Positions 1-6,402 of a stretch of DNA of 24,276 nucleotides are shown piece by piece. The position numbers and the translations under genes were made by a program. Origin of the DNA: a virus. Its lineage: Duplodnaviria; Heunggongvirae; Uroviricota; Caudoviricetes. The notes beneath the pieces were generated by a model. That model saw only the letters and a list, made by a program, of their open reading frames with translations, did no database searches and was not told where the DNA came from. The DNA lies in the IMG/VR virus record IMGVR_UViG_648276660_000003, positions 1 to 24,276 of that record, one strand, 5' to 3'. Position 1 is the first letter of the stretch. The number at the start of each line of letters is the position of its first letter.

Positions 1-847
1 GACTTTTTGCTGCATCGCAAATGTAAAATAAATATTTGTATTCGTAATACGTCCTAACAGTTTTAGTAAACAAACTGGTATCAGAGAAAACCACTGAGTC
101 TTCTGATATTATTTTAATCCATGATAAGTCACATCCTGCTGAAATTTCTATTTGCTCATTGAGCACAAAACCGGAAAGAATTTTAATTATGCAAAAGTCA
201 ATGCCATTTTTCCATAGTGGACGCAGTGCAACAGCCGAGTTTAGAGCATCACTAATAGATTTAAAATTACCATATTCCCCAACTGTTATTGTGAATGCAT
301 ACCTGGAATTAAATACTGCGGCACTCTCTCCAGAGTTAATAGCTGCAGATATCATGTCATAATTTGATATAAAATCATTTGGCGTGATTATTTCTGCGTT
401 TTTATTGTGCTGTGTTCTAAGTTTTGAATTTACATGAACACTTTTAACTGCAATACGGGAGTCGTCAACAAGTATTTCATTACCCTCTGTTGCTAACTCT
501 TGTCTTAACTGATCCGGGTCATACTTCAGCACATTCGGAAAATAGAACTGCTGCACACCGTACGCATCATAAACAGCCATAGAATGGCCCTGTACAGTAA
601 CGAATTTGGCAATCTGTCCGTTATATACCGGATATCCAGCAGCGTTAATGATGATTGGTTGCGAAACAGGAACGTGAGATCCATCTTCGTTCTCTACATA
701 AACCTGAATCTGGTTTTCAGGATTTACAGGGTCAGTATCAATTTTACCGATATAAATTTTGCCATTGGCTACGGCTTTAAAAGAACGAGCCATAGTGAAG
801 AGTTGAGAAGGCATCGATACAATCACATTGGCTGTAATGTCTGTCAT
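1..847 (-). CDS. tailspike protein, 5' part only (gene runs off the left edge of the window)
   Basis: Manual reverse-complement translation from ATG at 847..845 gives [113 protein letters not shown], which matches the P22/Sf6 tailspike head-binding domain as I remember it. The frame stays open to position 1. The ORF track lists no minus-strand ORF here, consistent with no in-frame stop inside the window. Confidence 0.85.
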
Positions 848-1871: not shown

Positions 1872-1933
1872 GTCAATATTTCCTAATCCGATTTGTTGAT
1901 ACCGAAGCCCTGACTGTTCCAGCAGTTGGGGCT

Positions 1934-2155
1934 TCACTGTTTTTGTAAGTCACTGTAGCTATAAAGCCACTGACCACTCATTTTTGATTTGATTGACTCT
2001 ACTGAGTCACGGCAAGGAATGATTCCACCTGACATCATTCTGATCTCCGTAAATTCACCACTCCATATCGACTCAATGCCATTAACGTTAACTAAAGATT
2101 TACCTCTACCAAGTGCATTCTCATAGCCAATCTCATCAACCTCAATAAACTTCAT
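1934..2155 (-). CDS. hypothetical 73-aa protein inserted between arc and ant
   Basis: ORF track. Its ATG (2155..2153) overlaps the arc stop (2154..2152) in an ATGA arrangement, and its stop overlaps the alternative GTG start of ant. No motif recognised. Confidence 0.45.
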
Positions 2156-2343: not shown

Positions 2344-2372
2344 ATTGAGAATATAATAGAGTGCTTCTATCA
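2344..2372 (+). promoter_or_regulatory. candidate Pmnt promoter, divergent from and overlapping Pant
   Basis: Plus strand: TTGAGA (2344-2349), 17-bp spacer, TATCAT (2367-2372), about 28 nt upstream of the mnt ATG. It overlaps Oarc, consistent with Arc repressing both promoters in P22. Confidence 0.45.
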
Positions 2373-2378
2373 TGTCAA
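2350..2378 (-). promoter_or_regulatory. Pant promoter (drives arc, the 73-aa ORF and ant)
   Basis: Minus strand: -35 TTGACA (2378..2373), 17-bp spacer, -10 TATATT (2355..2350). Confidence 0.7.
2353..2373. promoter_or_regulatory. Arc operator (Oarc)
   Basis: Minus-strand reading ATGATAGAAGCACTCTATTAT is almost identical to the 21-bp P22 arc operator as I remember it. It sits between the -35 and -10 of Pant. Confidence 0.75.
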
Positions 2379-2400: not shown

Positions 2401-2655
2401 ATGGCTAGAGACGATCCGCACTTTAACTTCCGTATGCCTTTGGAAGTAAGAGAAAAATTGAAATTAAGAGCAGAGGCTAACGGAAGGTCAATGAACTCAG
2501 AGTTATTACAAATCGTTCAGGATGCGCTATCAAAACCATCACCGATTACAGGATATCGCGACGAAGCTGAACGCTTGGCTGATCAGCAGGCAGAGCAGTT
2601 CAAGGCCGTAGTTTTTGAGACTCTAAAAAACATGTATGGCAATGGTGAAAAATGA
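2401..2655 (+). CDS. mnt: Mnt repressor (maintenance of lysogeny, immI)
   Basis: MARDDPHFNFRMPLEVREKLKLRAEANGRSMNSELLQIVQDALSKPSP... is near-identical to the P22 Mnt N-terminal region as I remember it. Confidence 0.9.
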   Translation: MARDDPHFNFRMPLEVREKLKLRAEANGRSMNSELLQIVQDALSKPSPITGYRDEAERLADQQAEQFKAVVFETLKNMYGNGEK

Positions 2656-2969
2656 AACGTATAGCAATCCTATTGCTCCTGTGTCTCTCGAGCATAGCTA
2701 ACGCAGAAACAAAATCAGACGATAGCAGTTTTGATGAAATACAAGGCCTCATGATAGCTTCTAAAATGGCTGGTATGTGTGGTGCAATCAAACAAATGGC
2801 AATATTCCAAGAATCTACAAACATGCCGGGTGGGAATGAATTCTTACAGAGATTCCTTACTACAGAGCAAGCAAGGCTTGGGATGACTCCGCAGCAATTT
2901 CTTGAAGCATGTCAGAAATCAATCTCTATTTATACCACCTATTACAATATGAGCTCTGAGAAAAAATAG
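2652..2969 (+). CDS. hypothetical secreted (periplasmic) protein, translationally coupled to mnt
   Basis: ATG at 2652 overlaps the mnt stop (ATGA). The N-terminus MKRIAILLLLCLSSIANA-ETK looks like a Sec signal peptide with an AXA cleavage site. The mature part is about 87 aa with two Cys. No family recognised. Confidence 0.6.
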   Translation: MKRIAILLLLCLSSIANAETKSDDSSFDEIQGLMIASKMAGMCGAIKQMAIFQESTNMPGGNEFLQRFLTTEQARLGMTPQQFLEACQKSISIYTTYYNMSSEKK

Positions 2970-2978
2970 ACAAGGATT

Positions 2979-3173
2979 TCAACAACTTCCGCGTACCTGA
3001 GTAATTCTGTCGCGGATTTGCTTCTTACGGTGGTTTAAGCTGGAGAGCTTGGCTTCTGCTTCTGATATTTGCGCATCCAAATCTTTAAGCTCAAGATCTG
3101 AAAGTCGCTGGTCAAGCAGGGTTTGGTTCAACTCAATGTTGTTCAGGCGTTCTTCTATGGTCATAACTTTCAT
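2979..3173 (-). CDS. hypothetical small coiled-coil protein (about 62-65 aa)
   Basis: ORF track, trimmed to MKVMTIEERLNNIELNQTLLDQRLSDLELKDLDAQISEAEAKL..., which has a heptad-like charged/leucine pattern. AGGA lies 8 nt upstream of the second ATG (3164). The longer track version overlaps the plus-strand ORF 3196..3378. Confidence 0.3.
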   Translation of the reverse strand: MKVMTIEERLNNIELNQTLLDQRLSDLELKDLDAQISEAEAKLSSLNHRKKQIRDRITQVRGSC

Positions 3174-3195
3174 CCTATAACTATTTGGAATCAAA

Positions 3196-3378
3196 ATGAA
3201 AAATATATTAATTGGTTTCGTTTTTGGTGCAGCCTGCGCCGCCAGCATTAGCGTTATCGCCGCCCAGATTGTTGGTGGTAACTCATATCTAATGGGCTAT
3301 GACGTCATGATAAATGGAGAGGTTGTTTGCTCAGATCCTTATGTATGGACATCGACAAAAGAAATAGAATGTGACTAA
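3196..3378 (+). CDS. hypothetical small membrane or secreted peptide (60 aa)
   Basis: A hydrophobic stretch [23 protein letters not shown] is followed by a 35-aa tail with two Cys. A hairpin plus T-run follows at 3381-3405. The RBS is weak. Confidence 0.35.
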
Positions 3379-3380
3379 TA

Positions 3381-3405
3381 CCAGCCTGATGGCTGGTTAA
3401 TTTTT
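3381..3405 (+). terminator. rho-independent terminator
   Basis: CCAGCC, loop TGAT, GGCTGG, then TTAATTTTT, immediately after the stop of the 60-aa ORF. Confidence 0.5.
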
Positions 3406-3423
3406 GCATTTACCTGGGCCATA

Positions 3424-3452
3424 TTGACTACTTATAAAATGAGATCAATATT
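3424..3452 (+). promoter_or_regulatory. candidate sigma70 promoter for the small-protein unit
   Basis: TTGACT (3424-3429), 17-bp spacer, AATATT (3447-3452), about 36 nt upstream of the ATG at 3489. Confidence 0.35.
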
Positions 3453-3488
3453 TAATCGCCCAATAACGGGTGTATGTTGAGGTATATC

Positions 3489-3668
3489 ATGGCGAAAAAA
3501 CCAGGTGAAAACACAGGAAAAAACGGTGGAATATACCAAGAAGTTGGCCCACGCGGCGGTAAGAAAGACAATTTTGCCACCGTCAAGGACAACGAAAGGC
3601 TTCCGCCAACAACAAAGCCAGGTCATGGCTGGGTATTGGATAAGCGAACTCCAGACAGCAAAAAGTAA
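3489..3668 (+). CDS. small basic protein (59 aa), possibly YjzC-like
   Basis: RBS GAGGT lies 6 nt upstream of the ATG. MAKKPGENTGKNGGIYQEVGPRGGKKDNFATVKDNERLPPTTKPGHGWVLDKRTPDSKK has a G-x-Y-x-E-V-G-P-R-G-G core that I associate, from memory and unverified, with the YjzC-like small-protein family. The unit is bracketed by its own promoter-like element and terminator. Confidence 0.55.
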   Translation: MAKKPGENTGKNGGIYQEVGPRGGKKDNFATVKDNERLPPTTKPGHGWVLDKRTPDSKK

Positions 3669-3673
3669 TACTC

Positions 3674-3696
3674 AAGCCGGATCACTCCGGCTTTTT
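3674..3696 (+). terminator. rho-independent terminator, probably shared by the convergent genes
   Basis: AAGCCGGA, loop TCAC, TCCGGCTT, then a T-run on the plus strand. The stop codon of the minus-strand HExxH gene lies in the loop. Confidence 0.55.
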
Positions 3697-4047
3697 GATA
3701 TGTCGCTCGCAGAACTCAACAAGCCTGCTCATTAAGTAGCAGTAAGTCTCGTTGGCTCTTCCTGGTTCAACATCAACACCGACCCTTGAGCAGATATCGA
3801 ATGCCATGTGAGCGCACTCATGGGCAATGGTAGATAGTTTGCCATTGAACACGCCTATCACATGCAAAACACCATTCTCGCTGCTCATTGTATGAGACGC
3901 TCCGTTGGCATCCGAGTCCCGCACGTCCACGCCAAGTTTTTGATGCAGGCGTTGCCATTCTGGAAAGTCTCTACAAAACACAATTGTACCGCTCTCAAAG
4001 AGCGGAACGAGCATCTTTGGTACGTTTCCAATGTTAACTTTTTTCAT
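3682..4047 (-). CDS. hypothetical HExxH-motif protein (putative small zinc-metallopeptidase-like), 121 aa
   Basis: ORF track, trimmed to the ATG at 4047 with AGGA just upstream. It contains ...GKLSTIAHECAHMAFDICSR..., a HExxH signature. It has no signal peptide. Family not assignable by eye. Confidence 0.55.
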   Translation of the reverse strand: MKKVNIGNVPKMLVPLFESGTIVFCRDFPEWQRLHQKLGVDVRDSDANGASHTMSSENGVLHVIGVFNGKLSTIAHECAHMAFDICSRVGVDVEPGRANETYCYLMSRLVEFCERHIKKPE

Positions 4048-4077
4048 GGTATCCTGCGTAAAACTAAGGAGGTTGGT

Positions 4078-4467
4078 GTGAAACAATTTCTTGCTGCTAT
4101 GTTCTTATTCATATCTTTTGGGGCTACAGCAGAGTGCTGGGTCGTTGGAGATATGCGCGGAATAAGCTATTCAGAACGAAATAATTTCCATCCGGAAGAA
4201 GATGGTTTTAGTGGAACATTCATCATTAAGACAAGCGGTGAAGATGCTAGCATCACATATTCTGGGACAGATGCGGGCGGCATGGCTTACAAAGTATTGT
4301 CTAAAAACTCCATCATAGGAATCGGCGCGAATGGCGAAACTCAACGCGTTATCGACTCATGGGTAATACATCCTACTGGAACAGTTTTAATGTCAAAAAC
4401 CATTTCCGGTTATGGAAATATGGATTCAACCAAAGCTTTTGTTGGAAAAGTAAAAAGAAAATGTTAG
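4078..4467 (+). CDS. hypothetical secreted protein (129 aa), divergent from the HExxH gene
   Basis: Strong SD AAGGAGG lies 5 nt before an in-frame GTG at 4078. The N-terminus (V/M)KQFLAAMFLFISFGATA-EC looks like a signal peptide. The mature part has Cys near both termini. The upstream part of the track ORF (3862-4077) overlaps the HExxH gene and is rejected. Confidence 0.5.
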   Translation: MKQFLAAMFLFISFGATAECWVVGDMRGISYSERNNFHPEEDGFSGTFIIKTSGEDASITYSGTDAGGMAYKVLSKNSIIGIGANGETQRVIDSWVIHPTGTVLMSKTISGYGNMDSTKAFVGKVKRKC

Positions 4468-4491
4468 CGATTGAATCCAATTTCCCATACG

Positions 4492-6402
4492 TTACTGCTG
4501 TGTTGCCTCAGTGGCAAGCAGCGGCCTGATGGCATTCGCAGCGTTATTCAGCGCTCTTTCATAGGCTGGCGTTCCAGCTTTAGTGTTTGCCAGACGTAAG
4601 AGAGCATTCCTTGCTGCTTTGGACTCATACAAGCGCATGATTGCACCGAAACCAGCCTCAAGTCCCAGTGATACACCAAGGGTTGCAGTTGCGCCAATCG
4701 TTCTAATCCTGTTAGCTTGCGATTGTCCTGTCTGTGTTACTACATTTGCGGCGTCCGACCTTGCTGTTTGCTGTAGAACTTCATGAAGAGCATCAAGCTC
4801 TTTCATGTGTCTCCCACTGAATATCGTGTTATAGATCTGACCGTCAGATTGCGACTTCAACTTATTTAACTCGGTAAGAAATTTTGTTGGCGAGTCTCCT
4901 GCTTTTTCTGCAATCTTGCTGATATAAGCAGCACGCATAGCGTTCTTTCCATCTTCACTAAGAGCTGGCCATATCCTCTTAATATCTGATGGTTTTCTGC
5001 TGAATACAACGCTGTTTATTAGCTCTGGAGTAAACTCTTTTTTAGCTTTGTTGAGATTGTTCGCAATCCTTTTATTAAGAACCTTATTGAAGACGTTGGA
5101 GTAGTCAGAGTTTGCTTTGACGTATCTGGCGGCCTCTCCAGCCCCCAAATACCGCGCTGCGTTATTCCTCAAATCCGCCCCCATTGCCCTCTCCACGGCA
5201 TCAGTTGCGGCTTTCGCGCTATTAGGAAAAACCATGGCATCTCCCTGAATACTTTCCCTCAAGGCTGACCGCAACTCTCTCAATAGACCAAAATCTATAT
5301 CTGGTTTAGCAAGTTCTTCTCGCAAATCGGATAACCCGCGAATCAAATCCTTATTTGCCACTTTCCCAAGCCTATTAGCTCTGGTAAGTACGTTGTCGAT
5401 AACCTTAATAGATTTTGATGTGTCAACTGGTGTGTCTCCCATTTTGGCTGTAATGTCTTCAATAACGCTTCCGGCCGAATCCTTCCTTGACTTCAGAGAG
5501 CCATACAGATCGTCAACAACAACTGATGGGCTATATTCACCATATTTCTCAAGCTGTTTTTTAACTAGCTGACTTCTTTTTGCATACTGCTCAGCTCGCT
5601 TTGAGCCTGTTCCCAGCAAAGCCCCCTCAGCATCCTGAGTAAGACCACGAGTGAAAGCATTTTTCGGCGGGATTACATCAGATGTCATTGGTGTCACGCC
5701 CATCGATTCTGATGTGGCAATTTTCTTCGCCACTTCTGGTGCAATATCACCTTTAAAGGCAGTTATTCCACGCTCAAGCCCTTTTGCAACAGTATTAACA
5801 GCACCACCTGTTAGCATGCCAACACCTATATCTGTTGCCAGTTTTCCCGCATCATTTTTCTCACTGTTTGCGGCGAGCGATCCGACTGCGTTTTCTGCCA
5901 GAAGACGGGCTGCGCCTTGAGTAATTCGACCAGCAAGTGTTGGCGCCTGAGTTGAAGCGCCGCCAACGCCAACAGTAGCCAGGTAAGGCAATGCCTCCGC
6001 AAACACCCTACCTTCTGTCGTTTGTGGAGTCAGAGCACCTTGCTGAAGTCCAAACGCCTGCTCTAATCCCTGAGTTGTTACTCGTGGCGCTGGTTGATAT
6101 GTTCCATCGCCAATACCGAGTTTACCGCCAGCCCATGCCGCCGCGCTTGTTACAGCATCGGCAACTGATGCTGGTATATTTGCCACATTTACACCAGCCT
6201 GCACCAGACCGCGACCAGTTTCTTTTACTGCTTCGCCGAGGTCAGACATAAATCCATCTTGCTGTTCTACAGGCTGCTTTTGGTTTTGAGTTGGTTGATT
6301 ACTGGAGGACAGAATCTGAGCGATGCGACGTGCTCCCTCAGTATCACCAGCAGCATCAGCATTCCTTAACGCCGTCATCAATTGTTCACGACTATAGGCC
6401 AT
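4492..6402 (-). CDS. ejection/DNA-transfer protein, P22 gp16-like (636 aa)
   Basis: Size and position as the last gene of the 14-7-20-16 block. Ala/Gly/Gln-rich composition typical of ejection proteins. Confidence 0.8.
   Translation of the reverse strand: MAYSREQLMTALRNADAAGDTEGARRIAQILSSSNQPTQNQKQPVEQQDGFMSDLGEAVKETGRGLVQAGVNVANIPASVADAVTSAAAWAGGKLGIGDGTYQPAPRVTTQGLEQAFGLQQGALTPQTTEGRVFAEALPYLATVGVGGASTQAPTLAGRITQGAARLLAENAVGSLAANSEKNDAGKLATDIGVGMLTGGAVNTVAKGLERGITAFKGDIAPEVAKKIATSESMGVTPMTSDVIPPKNAFTRGLTQDAEGALLGTGSKRAEQYAKRSQLVKKQLEKYGEYSPSVVVDDLYGSLKSRKDSAGSVIEDITAKMGDTPVDTSKSIKVIDNVLTRANRLGKVANKDLIRGLSDLREELAKPDIDFGLLRELRSALRESIQGDAMVFPNSAKAATDAVERAMGADLRNNAARYLGAGEAARYVKANSDYSNVFNKVLNKRIANNLNKAKKEFTPELINSVVFSRKPSDIKRIWPALSEDGKNAMRAAYISKIAEKAGDSPTKFLTELNKLKSQSDGQIYNTIFSGRHMKELDALHEVLQQTARSDAANVVTQTGQSQANRIRTIGATATLGVSLGLEAGFGAIMRLYESKAARNALLRLANTKAGTPAYERALNNAANAIRPLLATEATQQ

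What the first reader, a model, noticed from the sequence alone, without database searches (positions are those of the whole stretch)
2652..4467. AT-rich accessory island of six small ORFs between mnt and the gp16-like ejection gene, in the position P22 uses for sieA
Both flanks are conserved P22-type genes (mnt on one side, the 14-7-20-16 ejection block on the other). In P22 this interval holds the superinfection-exclusion gene sieA. Here it holds six small ORFs in mixed orientation: a 105-aa signal-peptide protein coupled to mnt, a 64-aa coiled-coil ORF, a 60-aa hydrophobic peptide, a 59-aa basic protein with its own promoter and terminators, a 121-aa HExxH protein, and a 129-aa signal-peptide protein. 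None looks like a membrane-spanning SieA. The island is visibly more AT-rich than the structural genes. Position next to immI and moron-like architecture make it the most likely place in the window for an undescribed lysogen-expressed exclusion, defence or conversion function. That function is inferred, not shown.
Basis: partly seen in the sequence, partly recalled or inferred. Interest (0 to 1): 0.75.

Follow-up and report, generated by a model that had tools for sequence, protein, structure and literature searches.

The report
P22-like prophage "ant moron" cargo
This stretch is the already described, fast-changing accessory region of a P22-like prophage in E. coli: two conserved genes of unknown function and four swappable small genes, three of them exported proteins that sit where sister phages carry a superinfection-exclusion gene or a toxin-immunity gene.

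Summary
There are six small ORFs at 2652-4467 between mnt and the gene-16 homologue, in mixed orientation, and the interval has lower G+C (0.427) than the structural genes (0.488). The window is 100% identical to E. coli MS 198-1.

It is not a single island. It is the mnt-to-16 half of the published "ant moron" of P22-like phages. A 704-bp backbone (3377-4080) is 96-98% identical in P22, HK620 and ST-35. It carries orf59a, a bidirectional terminator, hkcC (the "HExxH" ORF, intact but unannotated in the P22 reference) and the sieA promoter with its ribosome-binding site and GTG.

Two cargo sites flank the backbone. ORF1-3 lie between the mnt stop codon and the mnt terminator. ORF6 starts exactly at the sieA-slot GTG. 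In 81 related loci that slot holds ten alternative genes or is empty. Every cargo protein in lysogenic orientation has an N-terminal export or membrane segment. Sibling prophages carry SieA or a Rap1a type VI immunity protein at these sites.

ORF6 is predicted to be a periplasmic beta-barrel. ORF1 belongs to a widespread unannotated periplasmic family. hkcC is predicted to be a minimal zinc metallopeptidase in the late-operon direction. No function is shown. This is a new combination within a known kind of region.

The parts
2345..2378 (.). Divergent Pmnt (+, 2345-2373) and Pant (-, 2378-2350) promoters of immI
   Evidence: Consensus scan, 10/12 and 11/12 matches. They fall at the positions that correspond to the annotated P22 promoters.
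2401..2655 (+). mnt (maintenance repressor), left anchor
   Evidence: Pfam Arc 97 bits and Repressor_Mnt 44 bits.
2652..2969 (+). ORF1: 105-aa exported protein (signal peptide ...ANA|E, two invariant Cys), translationally coupled to mnt. Cargo of the mnt-operon slot.
   Evidence: ATGA overlap. phrog_19844. Family of 254 clusters at 50% identity, with no Pfam or PDB match. In all listed E. coli hits it overlaps the mnt gene.
2979..3173 (-). ORF2: 61-64-aa coiled-coil protein with no hydrophobic segment, in late-operon orientation
   Evidence: phrog_7586. Present in 21 of 91 loci. XhlA Pfam score is only 12.8 bits against a cut-off of 34.7.
3196..3378 (+). ORF3: 60-aa peptide with an N-terminal hydrophobic segment and a C-terminal Cys pair. 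Last gene before the mnt terminator.
   Evidence: phrog_37095. Kyte-Doolittle 2.35. Always found with ORF2.
3380..3397 (+). Terminator-like hairpin at the position of tMNT
   Evidence: The homologous position in P22 and HK620 directly follows mnt, so ORF1-3 are inserted between the mnt stop and its terminator.
3377..4080 (.). 704-bp conserved backbone segment of the ant moron
   Evidence: 96.3-98.4% identical to P22, ST-35, HK620 and ETEC1747.
3424..3452 (+). Promoter-like site upstream of orf59a
   Evidence: TTGACT-17-AATATT, 9/12 matches. A consensus match only.
3489..3668 (+). ORF4 = P22 orf59a / HK620 hkcD: 59-aa basic protein, backbone gene
   Evidence: P22 annotation. phrog_3202. YjzC-like at 19.1 bits, below the 25-bit cut-off. 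It is the convergent partner of hkcC also in Xenorhabdus, Proteus and Pasteurellaceae prophages.
3674..3693 (.). Hairpin terminator between convergent orf59a and hkcC
   Evidence: Annotated as the bidirectional terminator tORF59A in HK620 and as the mnt terminator in P22.
3682..4047 (-). ORF5 = hkcC: 121-aa predicted minimal zinc metallopeptidase, late-operon orientation, backbone gene
   Evidence: 99.2% identical to HK620 hkcC and to an intact, unannotated P22 ORF. H76, E77, H80 and G96-x-A98-N99-E100-T101 are invariant down to 36% identity. AlphaFold2 pLDDT 83. Weak zincin fold matches.
4017..4080 (+). Homologue of the P22 sieA promoter, plus AAGGAGG and a shared GTG start: the docking site for slot-B cargo
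   Evidence: Identical to P22 except at 2 positions. Sequences diverge immediately after the GTG in five phages. PsieA is annotated at the corresponding P22 position.
4078..4467 (+). ORF6: 129-aa exported protein (signal peptide ...ATA|E, Cys at both ends of the mature chain). Cargo in the sieA slot.
   Evidence: phrog_2651. AlphaFold2 pLDDT 88.9, ten-stranded all-beta. Generic small-barrel matches. Present in 147 of 5426 E. coli genomes. Found only in P22-like contexts, behind mnt, Rap1a or PsieA.
4411..4489 (.). 19-nt inverted repeat straddling the ORF6 stop, between convergent ORF6 and gene 16
   Evidence: Function not tested.
4492..6402 (-). Gene-16-type DNA ejection protein, right anchor and last gene of the ejection block
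   Evidence: PGAP names such as 'P22-gp16 family phage DNA ejection protein' in near-identical relatives.

Best explanation
The interval is the mnt-to-gene-16 half of the 'ant moron' of a P22-like (Lederbergvirus) prophage. It consists of a conserved backbone and two cargo docking sites.

Shown: the backbone (3377-4080) carries orf59a, a terminator, hkcC and the sieA promoter with its RBS and GTG. Cargo A (ORF1, ORF2, ORF3) is inserted between the mnt stop codon and the mnt terminator. Cargo B (ORF6) begins at the GTG served by the sieA promoter.

Inferred: in a lysogen, Pmnt and PsieA drive the + strand genes. ORF1, ORF3 and ORF6 are therefore made by the prophage and exported.

Most likely mechanism: they are stand-alone envelope-protection proteins that bind and neutralise something arriving in the periplasm. 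ORF6 is a disulfide-closed soluble beta-barrel found only in P22-like prophages next to the ejection genes. It most likely replaces SieA functionally, as a periplasmic blocker of DNA delivery by incoming P22-like phages. ORF1 belongs to a broad phage and mobile-element family and is more likely a general periplasmic inhibitor or immunity-type protein.

The two - strand genes are not lysogenic cargo. hkcC and ORF2 lie in the direction of PLate transcripts, which read through this region to the tailspike gene. hkcC is predicted to be a minimal HExxH...E zinc metallopeptidase with an unknown substrate.
For: Identity and mosaic structure: the window is 100% identical to E. coli MS 198-1. The backbone is 96-98% identical to P22, HK620, ST-35 and ETEC1747, with sharp junctions at 3377 and 4080. 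The region between genes 16 and 9 was published as a fast-changing 'ant moron' that in P22 holds sieA, hkcC and 59a (PMC2629481).

Lysogenic expression context: sieA is among the P22 genes expressed from the prophage (10.1101/2023.08.15.553423); for mnt this is my own knowledge of immI (Mnt is the maintenance repressor). The Pmnt site and the PsieA sequence are conserved. ORF1 overlaps the mnt stop in every listed E. coli copy. Among 80 ORF6 loci the commonest layouts are mnt-ORF6-16 and mnt-Rap1a-ORF6-16.

Cargo logic: the sieA slot holds 10 alternative genes in 81 loci, including SieA itself (13 loci). All 10 slot-B and all 4 + strand slot-A cargo families have an N-terminal hydrophobic segment, against 1 of 19 long ORFs in the window. 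A sibling carries a true Rap1a immunity protein (PF18602, 55 bits) coupled to mnt. ORF1 and ORF6 each occur in both slots.

ORF6: confident all-beta model, terminal cysteines and no lipobox.

Confidence: 0.45

Rival explanations
1. ORF1 and/or ORF6 are orphan immunity proteins against periplasm-acting antibacterial toxins (T6SS amidases or muramidases, colicins, pesticin-type lysozymes). The prophage would protect its host in interbacterial competition rather than against phages.
For: A bona fide Rap1a/Tai immunity protein occupies the mnt-coupled position in sibling prophages and is followed by ORF6 in 13 of 80 ORF6 loci. ORF1 and ORF6 are small, exported, disulfide-containing and stand-alone, as immunity proteins are. 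ORF1 is spread over many phage types and islands, which argues against a P22-specific target.
Confidence: 0.2
2. The exported cargo proteins are host-interaction (virulence or fitness) factors of the lysogen, comparable to lambda Bor or Lom. They would alter the cell surface or resistance to host factors rather than block phages or toxins.
For: The top ORF6 structural matches include Neisserial surface barrels that bind host factors (NspA, NHBA, fHbp, HpuA) and outer-membrane barrels. The mnt end of the P22-like prophage Gally is induced 6-40-fold inside macrophages (PMC9928086). MS 198-1 is a human colon isolate.
Against: The barrel similarity is generic (avidins, lipocalins and designed barrels score alike). 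ORF6 has no lipobox, no C-terminal aromatic beta-signal, short strands and terminal cysteines, all of which favour a soluble periplasmic protein. Carriers come from many hosts and foods.
Confidence: 0.08
3. The cargo ORFs have no role in the lysogen. They are lytic-cycle accessory genes or near-neutral passengers that persist because this is the one place in the late operon that tolerates insertions.
For: The 2008 analysis raised exactly this possibility (PMC2629481). No moron expression was seen in the Gally prophage in LB. 8 of 81 loci have an empty sieA slot, and many phages lack the region altogether.
Against: ORF1 and ORF6 are conserved at the protein level down to 29-46% identity, with invariant Cys and motif residues. 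Their placement at a conserved promoter/RBS/start codon, or in ATGA coupling with mnt, is precise and recurrent. The universal export signals on lysogenic-strand cargo are hard to explain by neutrality.
Confidence: 0.15
4. The six ORFs form one co-adapted multi-gene defence system, which is the implied reading of 'island'.
For: They are contiguous and flanked by conserved genes. The same six occur together in two E. coli genomes.
Against: They reassort freely. No IMG/VR locus among 80 anchored on hkcC, or among 80 anchored on ORF6, has all six. They lie on both strands in at least three transcription units. Two of them are backbone genes found with any cargo. There is no PADLOC hit.
Confidence: 0.03

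Closest known systems
The 'ant moron' / immunity I region of P22-like phages (Villafane, Casjens et al. 2008, PMC2629481)
   Same: Same location between the gene 16 and gene 9 homologues. Contains mnt, arc, sar and ant plus extra genes. Variable content; the 2008 paper counted ten types in sixteen genomes. PLate transcripts cross it.
   Different: This particular gene set (ORF1-ORF2-ORF3 behind mnt, ORF6 in the sieA slot, an extra 73-aa ORF between arc and ant) was not among those described. Two things were worked out here rather than taken from the paper: the two-slot-plus-backbone anatomy, and the finding that all lysogenic-strand cargo is exported.
P22 SieA (superinfection exclusion; Leavitt et al., mBio 2024 / 10.1101/2023.08.15.553423)
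   Same: ORF6 uses the same promoter, ribosome-binding site and start codon position, lies next to gene 16, and acts (if at all) in the envelope.
   Different: No sequence similarity. SieA is a multi-pass inner-membrane protein, whereas ORF6 is predicted to be a cleaved, soluble periplasmic beta-barrel. No exclusion phenotype is known for ORF6.
HK620 hkcB / hkcC / hkcD and P22 orf59a
   Same: ORF5 is 99.2% identical to hkcC. ORF4 is orf59a (hkcD). The terminator between them is the annotated tORF59A.
   Different: None for these two genes. HK620 carries hkcB (membrane anchor plus coiled coil) where this prophage carries ORF6.
Rap1a/Tai4 type VI secretion immunity proteins (Pfam PF18602)
   Same: A Rap1a gene occupies the mnt-coupled slot in sibling prophages. 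Same size class, signal peptide and Cys pair as ORF1.
   Different: ORF1 and ORF6 do not match PF18602. ORF1 lacks the Rap1a C-terminal motifs, and ORF6 is all-beta.
Minimal zincins: minigluzincins (projannalysin), the Acel_2062-type 'zincin-like' proteins (3e11), and ImmA/IrrE/CapP proteases
   Same: hkcC has HExxH on a predicted long helix, a Glu 20 residues downstream at the start of the next helix, and a preceding beta-sheet, in about 120 residues. These are its best (weak) structural matches.
Other phage-encoded envelope exclusion proteins (T4 Imm/Sp, T5 Llp, phi80/N15 Cor, HK97 gp15), cited from my own knowledge
   Same: Small prophage- or early-expressed membrane, lipoprotein or periplasmic proteins that block entry of related phages.
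   Different: No sequence or fold relationship was tested or found. This is an analogy only.

Membership tests
ant moron of P22-like phages | [quoted passage not shown] | tested here: met
   Gene-16-type ORF at 4492-6402 (-). Tailspike ('head-binding domain') gene from about 847 leftwards.
ant moron of P22-like phages | Carries immI elements (mnt, arc, sar, ant) | tested here: met
   Pfam Arc/Repressor_Mnt and P22_AR_N/C. Rfam sar at 60.3 bits, 1873-1938.
ant moron of P22-like phages | Gene content differs between otherwise syntenic phages | tested here: met
   More than 35 layouts among 80 hkcC-anchored loci; 10 alternative genes in the sieA slot.
SieA superinfection exclusion proteins | Sequence similarity to SieA types A-C (phrog_7745; conserved FnRYPnEAnnFNK motif) | tested here: not met
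   None of the six ORFs hits phrog_7745, whereas P22 SieA does. The motif is absent from the translations.
SieA superinfection exclusion proteins | Multi-pass inner-membrane topology | tested here: not met
   ORF6 has a single N-terminal hydrophobic segment followed by an AXA site and an all-beta mature domain.
SieA superinfection exclusion proteins | Position and expression signals (downstream of PsieA, next to gene 16) | tested here: met
   Promoter, SD and GTG identical to P22 except at 2 bases.
SieA superinfection exclusion proteins | Blocks DNA entry of P22-like phages | not testable with these tools
   Needs plating and potassium-efflux assays.
Rap1a/Tai4 T6SS immunity proteins (PF18602) | Match to PF18602 above the gathering score | tested here: not met
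   No hit for ORF1 or ORF6 at E<=1, nor for 53 ORF1-family members. The sibling ETEC1747 protein scores 55.3 bits against a cut-off of 27.7.
Gluzincin-type zinc metallopeptidases (for ORF5/hkcC) | HExxH motif, invariant | tested here: met
   H76, E77 and H80 are invariant in 19 and in 12 sequences, down to 36% identity.
Gluzincin-type zinc metallopeptidases (for ORF5/hkcC) | Third-ligand Glu on the following helix (NExxx, about 20 residues after the second His) | tested here: met
   N99-E100-T101 are invariant, and E100 lies 20 residues after H80. The predicted second helix starts at residue 100. Metal coordination itself was not tested.
Gluzincin-type zinc metallopeptidases (for ORF5/hkcC) | Zincin fold recognisable by structure comparison | tested here: inconclusive
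Gluzincin-type zinc metallopeptidases (for ORF5/hkcC) | Sequence-profile membership in a curated peptidase family | tested here: not met
   No Pfam or NCBIfam peptidase hit. A PDB profile search was empty. The single-sequence thermolysin match has E 0.097 only.
YjzC-like proteins (PF14168) (for ORF4/orf59a) | Match above the gathering score of 25 bits | tested here: inconclusive
   19.1, 18.9 and 19.8 bits for three orthologues, covering nearly the whole model.
XhlA family (PF10779) (PGAP name for ORF2 in some genomes) | Match above 34.7 bits and a membrane segment | tested here: not met
   12.8 bits. Maximum hydropathy is -0.13.
Known anti-phage defence systems (PADLOC-DB 2.0) | Any component model matched | tested here: not met
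   Only coiled-coil noise for ORF2 (PbeC, JetC).

The most novel reading that the evidence does not exclude
The sieA promoter/RBS/GTG site and the mnt-coupled site of P22-like prophages form a general docking system for interchangeable, prophage-expressed exported proteins. At least 14 families were seen here, of which only SieA and Rap1a are understood. On this reading, ORF6 (periplasmic disulfide-closed beta-barrel) and ORF1 (a periplasmic family of about 250 clusters with no Pfam entry) would be founding members of new families of periplasmic exclusion or immunity proteins. The conserved pair hkcC/orf59a would be a late-expressed minimal metalloprotease with its small partner.
Probability: 0.3. 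Interest if true: 0.6.

Novelty: new member of a known kind. Interest (0 to 1): 0.3.

Why it matters
As it stands, this is an ordinary example of a known variable region, and its genes are already in public annotations and PHROGs as unknowns. Its practical value is as a short, well-delimited list of candidates. The two slots are read from promoters that in P22 are active in the prophage (sieA documented; mnt from own knowledge), and they hold one experimentally proven exclusion gene (sieA) and one known immunity family (Rap1a). The unknown exported proteins that alternate with them, ORF6 and ORF1 first of all, are therefore cheap to test for exclusion of P22-like phages or for protection against periplasmic toxins. 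The analysis also flags that the reference annotation of P22 omits an intact, widely conserved gene (hkcC) with a metalloprotease signature.

Tried and rejected
- Pfam, NCBIfam, PADLOC and PDB sequence searches of all six proteins gave no usable assignment.
- A profile of 53 ORF1-family members against Pfam and PDB found nothing. A profile of the hkcC family against PDB found nothing.
- I looked for a toxin or effector neighbour of ORF1 homologues in viral and metagenome contigs and found none that recurs.
- I rejected ORF1 as a Rap1a homologue: no PF18602 hit and different motifs.
- I rejected PGAP's 'XhlA family' label for ORF2.
- I rejected reading the long 201-aa + strand ORF (3862-4467) as the gene. 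Its first 72 codons are the antisense of hkcC, and the real start is the SD-GTG at 4078.
- Literature searches for Rap1a in prophages and for orf59a found no functional work.
Full report
**What is there.**
- ORF1, 2652-2969 +, 105 aa
- ORF2, 2979-3173 -, 64 aa (61 aa from the ATG at 3164)
- ORF3, 3196-3378 +, 60 aa
- ORF4, 3489-3668 +, 59 aa
- ORF5, 3682-4047 -, 121 aa, HECAH
- ORF6, 4078-4467 +, 129 aa from a GTG six bases after AAGGAGG

The window is 100% identical to the chromosome of E. coli MS 198-1, a human colon isolate, where all six are annotated as hypothetical proteins. Each matches a PHROG family of unknown function at E 1e-31 to 1e-70. Pfam, NCBIfam and PADLOC gave no usable assignment. 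G+C of 2652-4467 is 0.427. The structural region averages 0.488, and no equal-sized window there falls below 0.462. The low G+C is confined to ORF1, ORF3 and ORF6 (0.40-0.41); ORF4 and ORF5 (0.47) look like the rest of the phage.

**What P22 has in this interval.** The curated P22 record shows mnt, orf59a, a terminator, the sieA promoter, sieA and gene 16. ORF listing of that stretch also shows an intact 121-aa reverse-strand ORF between the terminator and the sieA promoter. It is 99% identical to ORF5 and is not annotated in the P22 reference. The same gene is annotated in HK620 as hkcC, function unknown, and the hairpin after it as the bidirectional terminator tORF59A. The epsilon34 genome paper names the whole 16-to-9 interval the 'ant moron'. 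It lists sieA, hkcC and 59a as its extra P22 genes, counts ten types in sixteen genomes, calls it a region in rapid flux, and notes that PLate transcripts read through it into the tailspike gene (PMC2629481). The SieA paper adds that only 22 of 66 P22-like phages carry sieA. The region is thus a described phenomenon, and two of the six ORFs are conserved P22-family genes of unknown function.

**Anatomy.** Pairwise BLAST and alignments define a 704-bp backbone, window 3377-4080, that is 96.3-98.4% identical in P22, ST-35, HK620 and E. coli ETEC1747. It contains:
- the sequence that follows mnt in P22 (a hairpin at 3380-3397, at the position of HK620's tMNT)
- a promoter-like site
- orf59a
- the terminator at 3674-3693
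- hkcC
- the homologue of the P22 sieA promoter with AAGGAGG and a GTG

The five phages are identical up to that GTG, apart from two bases just upstream of the ribosome-binding site, and diverge immediately after it. Cargo is therefore exchanged exactly at a shared start codon.

On the other side, the mnt stop overlaps the ATG of the next gene (ATGA) both here (ORF1) and in ETEC1747, where the next gene is a Rap1a protein. P22 homology resumes only at 3377. ORF1, ORF2 and ORF3 are thus inserted between the mnt stop codon and the mnt terminator.

**Do the ORFs travel together? No.**
- Among 5426 complete E. coli genomes, 543 records share part of the region, but only MS 198-1 and CUPS04 carry all six ORFs.
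- ORF6 alone is in 147 genomes and ORF1 in 36. In every listed case ORF1 overlaps the mnt gene.
- Eighty IMG/VR contigs anchored on hkcC show more than 35 layouts, none with all six.
- Eighty anchored on ORF6 most often read mnt-ORF6-16 or mnt-Rap1a-ORF6-16, with no backbone at all.
- In ETEC1747 the part of ORF6 that encodes the mature protein is 99.4% identical, but it is joined to a different signal peptide and sits behind Rap1a in the mnt operon.
- ORF1 homologues in turn occur in the sieA slot.

**The sieA slot.** I extracted the DNA between gene 16 and hkcC from 81 loci and took the ORF that starts at the SD-GTG. The contents were:

| Cargo | Loci |
|---|---|
| 161-aa lipoprotein | 18 |
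| SieA | 13 |
| ORF6 | 12 |
| Two unrelated membrane-anchored coiled-coil proteins (one is HK620 hkcB) | 8 and 7 |
| 106-aa anchored protein | 5 |
| 62-aa membrane peptide | 4 |
| YobH-like secreted protein | 2 |
| ORF1 homologue | 2 |
| 149-aa anchored protein | 1 |
| Empty 255-bp slot | 8 |

Two further loci with very long slots (1.9 and 2.6 kb) and one locus with no slot at all also gave no ORF by this rule; they make up the rest of the 81.

All ten families, and all four + strand cargo families of the mnt slot (ORF1, ORF3, Rap1a and a 74-aa membrane protein), have an N-terminal hydrophobic segment. Only 1 of 19 long ORFs in the window does, and none of Mnt, orf59a, hkcC or ORF2 does. Only SieA (phrog 'superinfection exclusion') and Rap1a (PF18602, 55 bits) have a known role.

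**ORF1.** Close homologues are few. A profile search of 1.84 billion representatives, however, found 254 clusters (167 below 1e-10). They are about 100 aa long with a signal peptide and the conserved pattern K..G.CG...Q...FQ..T.M.GG.EF..RF...E.AR.G...C...Y, including two invariant Cys. No member matches Pfam and the profile finds nothing in the PDB. In viral and metagenome contigs the gene stands alone. It is often directly behind an Mnt-like repressor (L118, L119, L138), but it also occurs in Mu-like, P2-like and integrase-linked contexts, and no neighbour recurs.

**ORF5 (hkcC).**
- *Motif.* Homologues reach Xenorhabdus, Proteus, Pasteurellaceae, Moraxella, Kluyvera, Citrobacter, Mixta and Atlantibacter. 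H76, E77, H80, G96, A98, N99, E100, T101 and C103 are invariant down to 36% identity. E100 lies 20 residues after H80, the thermolysin spacing as I recall it (not checked here).
- *Context.* It always lies on the strand of the late or structural genes: beside terminase in four genera, beside tail genes in Xenorhabdus, and between 16 and 9 here. A 36-40% paralogue (ST64T orf-129, epsilon34 gene 70) occurs elsewhere in P22-like genomes.
- *Partner.* orf59a is its convergent neighbour in three other genera as well, which suggests a functional pair. orf59a scores just below the YjzC-like threshold.

**How it most likely works.**
- *Shown:* the positions, the ATGA coupling, the conserved promoter/RBS/start codon, the mosaic junctions, the export signals, and the identity of the alternative cargo.
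- *From the literature:* sieA is expressed from the P22 prophage, and PLate transcripts cross the region. That mnt is expressed in the lysogen is my own knowledge of immI, not taken from these papers.
- *Inferred:* ORF1, ORF3 and ORF6 are made in the lysogen and exported, and they act as stand-alone envelope-protection proteins.

I commit to ORF6 as a SieA-like functional replacement that interferes in the periplasm with DNA delivery by incoming P22-like phages. It is restricted to such prophages, always lies beside the ejection genes, and occupies SieA's expression site. I take ORF1 to be a more general periplasmic inhibitor or immunity-type protein.

The main rival is toxin immunity, supported by Rap1a in the same slot. 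Weaker rivals are a host-interaction role and neutrality.

One caution: in the P22-like prophage Gally of LF82, no gene other than the repressor was transcribed more than 5-fold above background in LB. The mnt end of that prophage was induced only in macrophages (PMC9928086).

**Verdict.** The region is a new combination within a known, published kind of variable region. All its genes are already catalogued as unknowns. Interest is modest (0.3). The main value is a short list of testable exported proteins and the note that hkcC is missing from the P22 reference annotation.

Noticed in passing
window 1873-1938 (+): Rfam sar antisense RNA (RF00262, 60.3 bits against a gathering score of 43) overlaps the 5' end of ant, so the immI control circuit appears complete.
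   Followed up: partly
window 1934-2155 (-): An extra 73-aa ORF is wedged between arc and ant, with overlapping stop and start codons on both sides. G+C is 0.387. It is absent from P22 and has no Pfam match. It is seen in only a handful of related IMG/VR loci (for example L070, L095, L181, L198, L218, L230).
   Followed up: partly
window 1-847 (-): The tailspike ('phage head-binding domain-containing protein') gene starts near 847 and runs off the left end. The first 947 bases have G+C 0.385, the lowest in the window.
   Followed up: no
window 4066-4080; L001 (P22) 3530-3544: All sieA-slot cargo genes, including P22 sieA, share AAGGAGG plus a GTG. The annotated P22 sieA ATG lies four codons downstream of that GTG, so SieA may really start at the GTG.
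   Followed up: partly
L001 (P22 BK000583) 3146-3511 (-): The curated P22 reference record and two other P22 records do not annotate hkcC, although the 121-codon frame is intact and 99% identical to HK620 hkcC.
   Followed up: yes
window 4127-4466; L005 2253-2592: The part of ORF6 that encodes the mature protein is 99.4% identical in ETEC1747 but is fused to a different signal peptide. The recombination joint lies at the boundary between signal peptide and mature protein.
   Followed up: partly
phage records ST64T, L, epsilon34, ST104, SE1, ST160; loci L009-L013: hkcC has a 36-40% identical paralogue (orf-129 / gene 70), located elsewhere in these genomes than the 16-to-9 region. In prophages of other genera (Kluyvera, Citrobacter, Mixta, Atlantibacter) the hkcC homologue lies directly upstream of the terminase genes. 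Some P22-like phages carry both copies.
   Followed up: partly
window 4411-4429 and 4471-4489: A 19-nt inverted repeat (84% complementary, 41 nt apart) straddles the ORF6 stop codon, between convergent ORF6 and gene 16. It may be a terminator or a recombination joint.
   Followed up: no
L161 4995-6068: In one metagenomic P22-like prophage the sieA slot holds three exported genes in series: an ORF1 homologue, a 111-aa signal-peptide protein and a 154-aa lipoprotein with a weak BamE-like match.
   Followed up: partly
L156 4980-9629: An ORF1 homologue sits directly upstream of a 759-aa ATPase-like ORF and a 619-aa UvrD-like ORF in a metagenome contig. This may be a defence island. The neighbours were not scanned.
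   Followed up: no
L004 (E. coli GF43) 1940-2908: An IS903B copy is inserted right after mnt and truncates the Rap1a gene. This is an example of ongoing disruption at the mnt-coupled slot.
   Followed up: no
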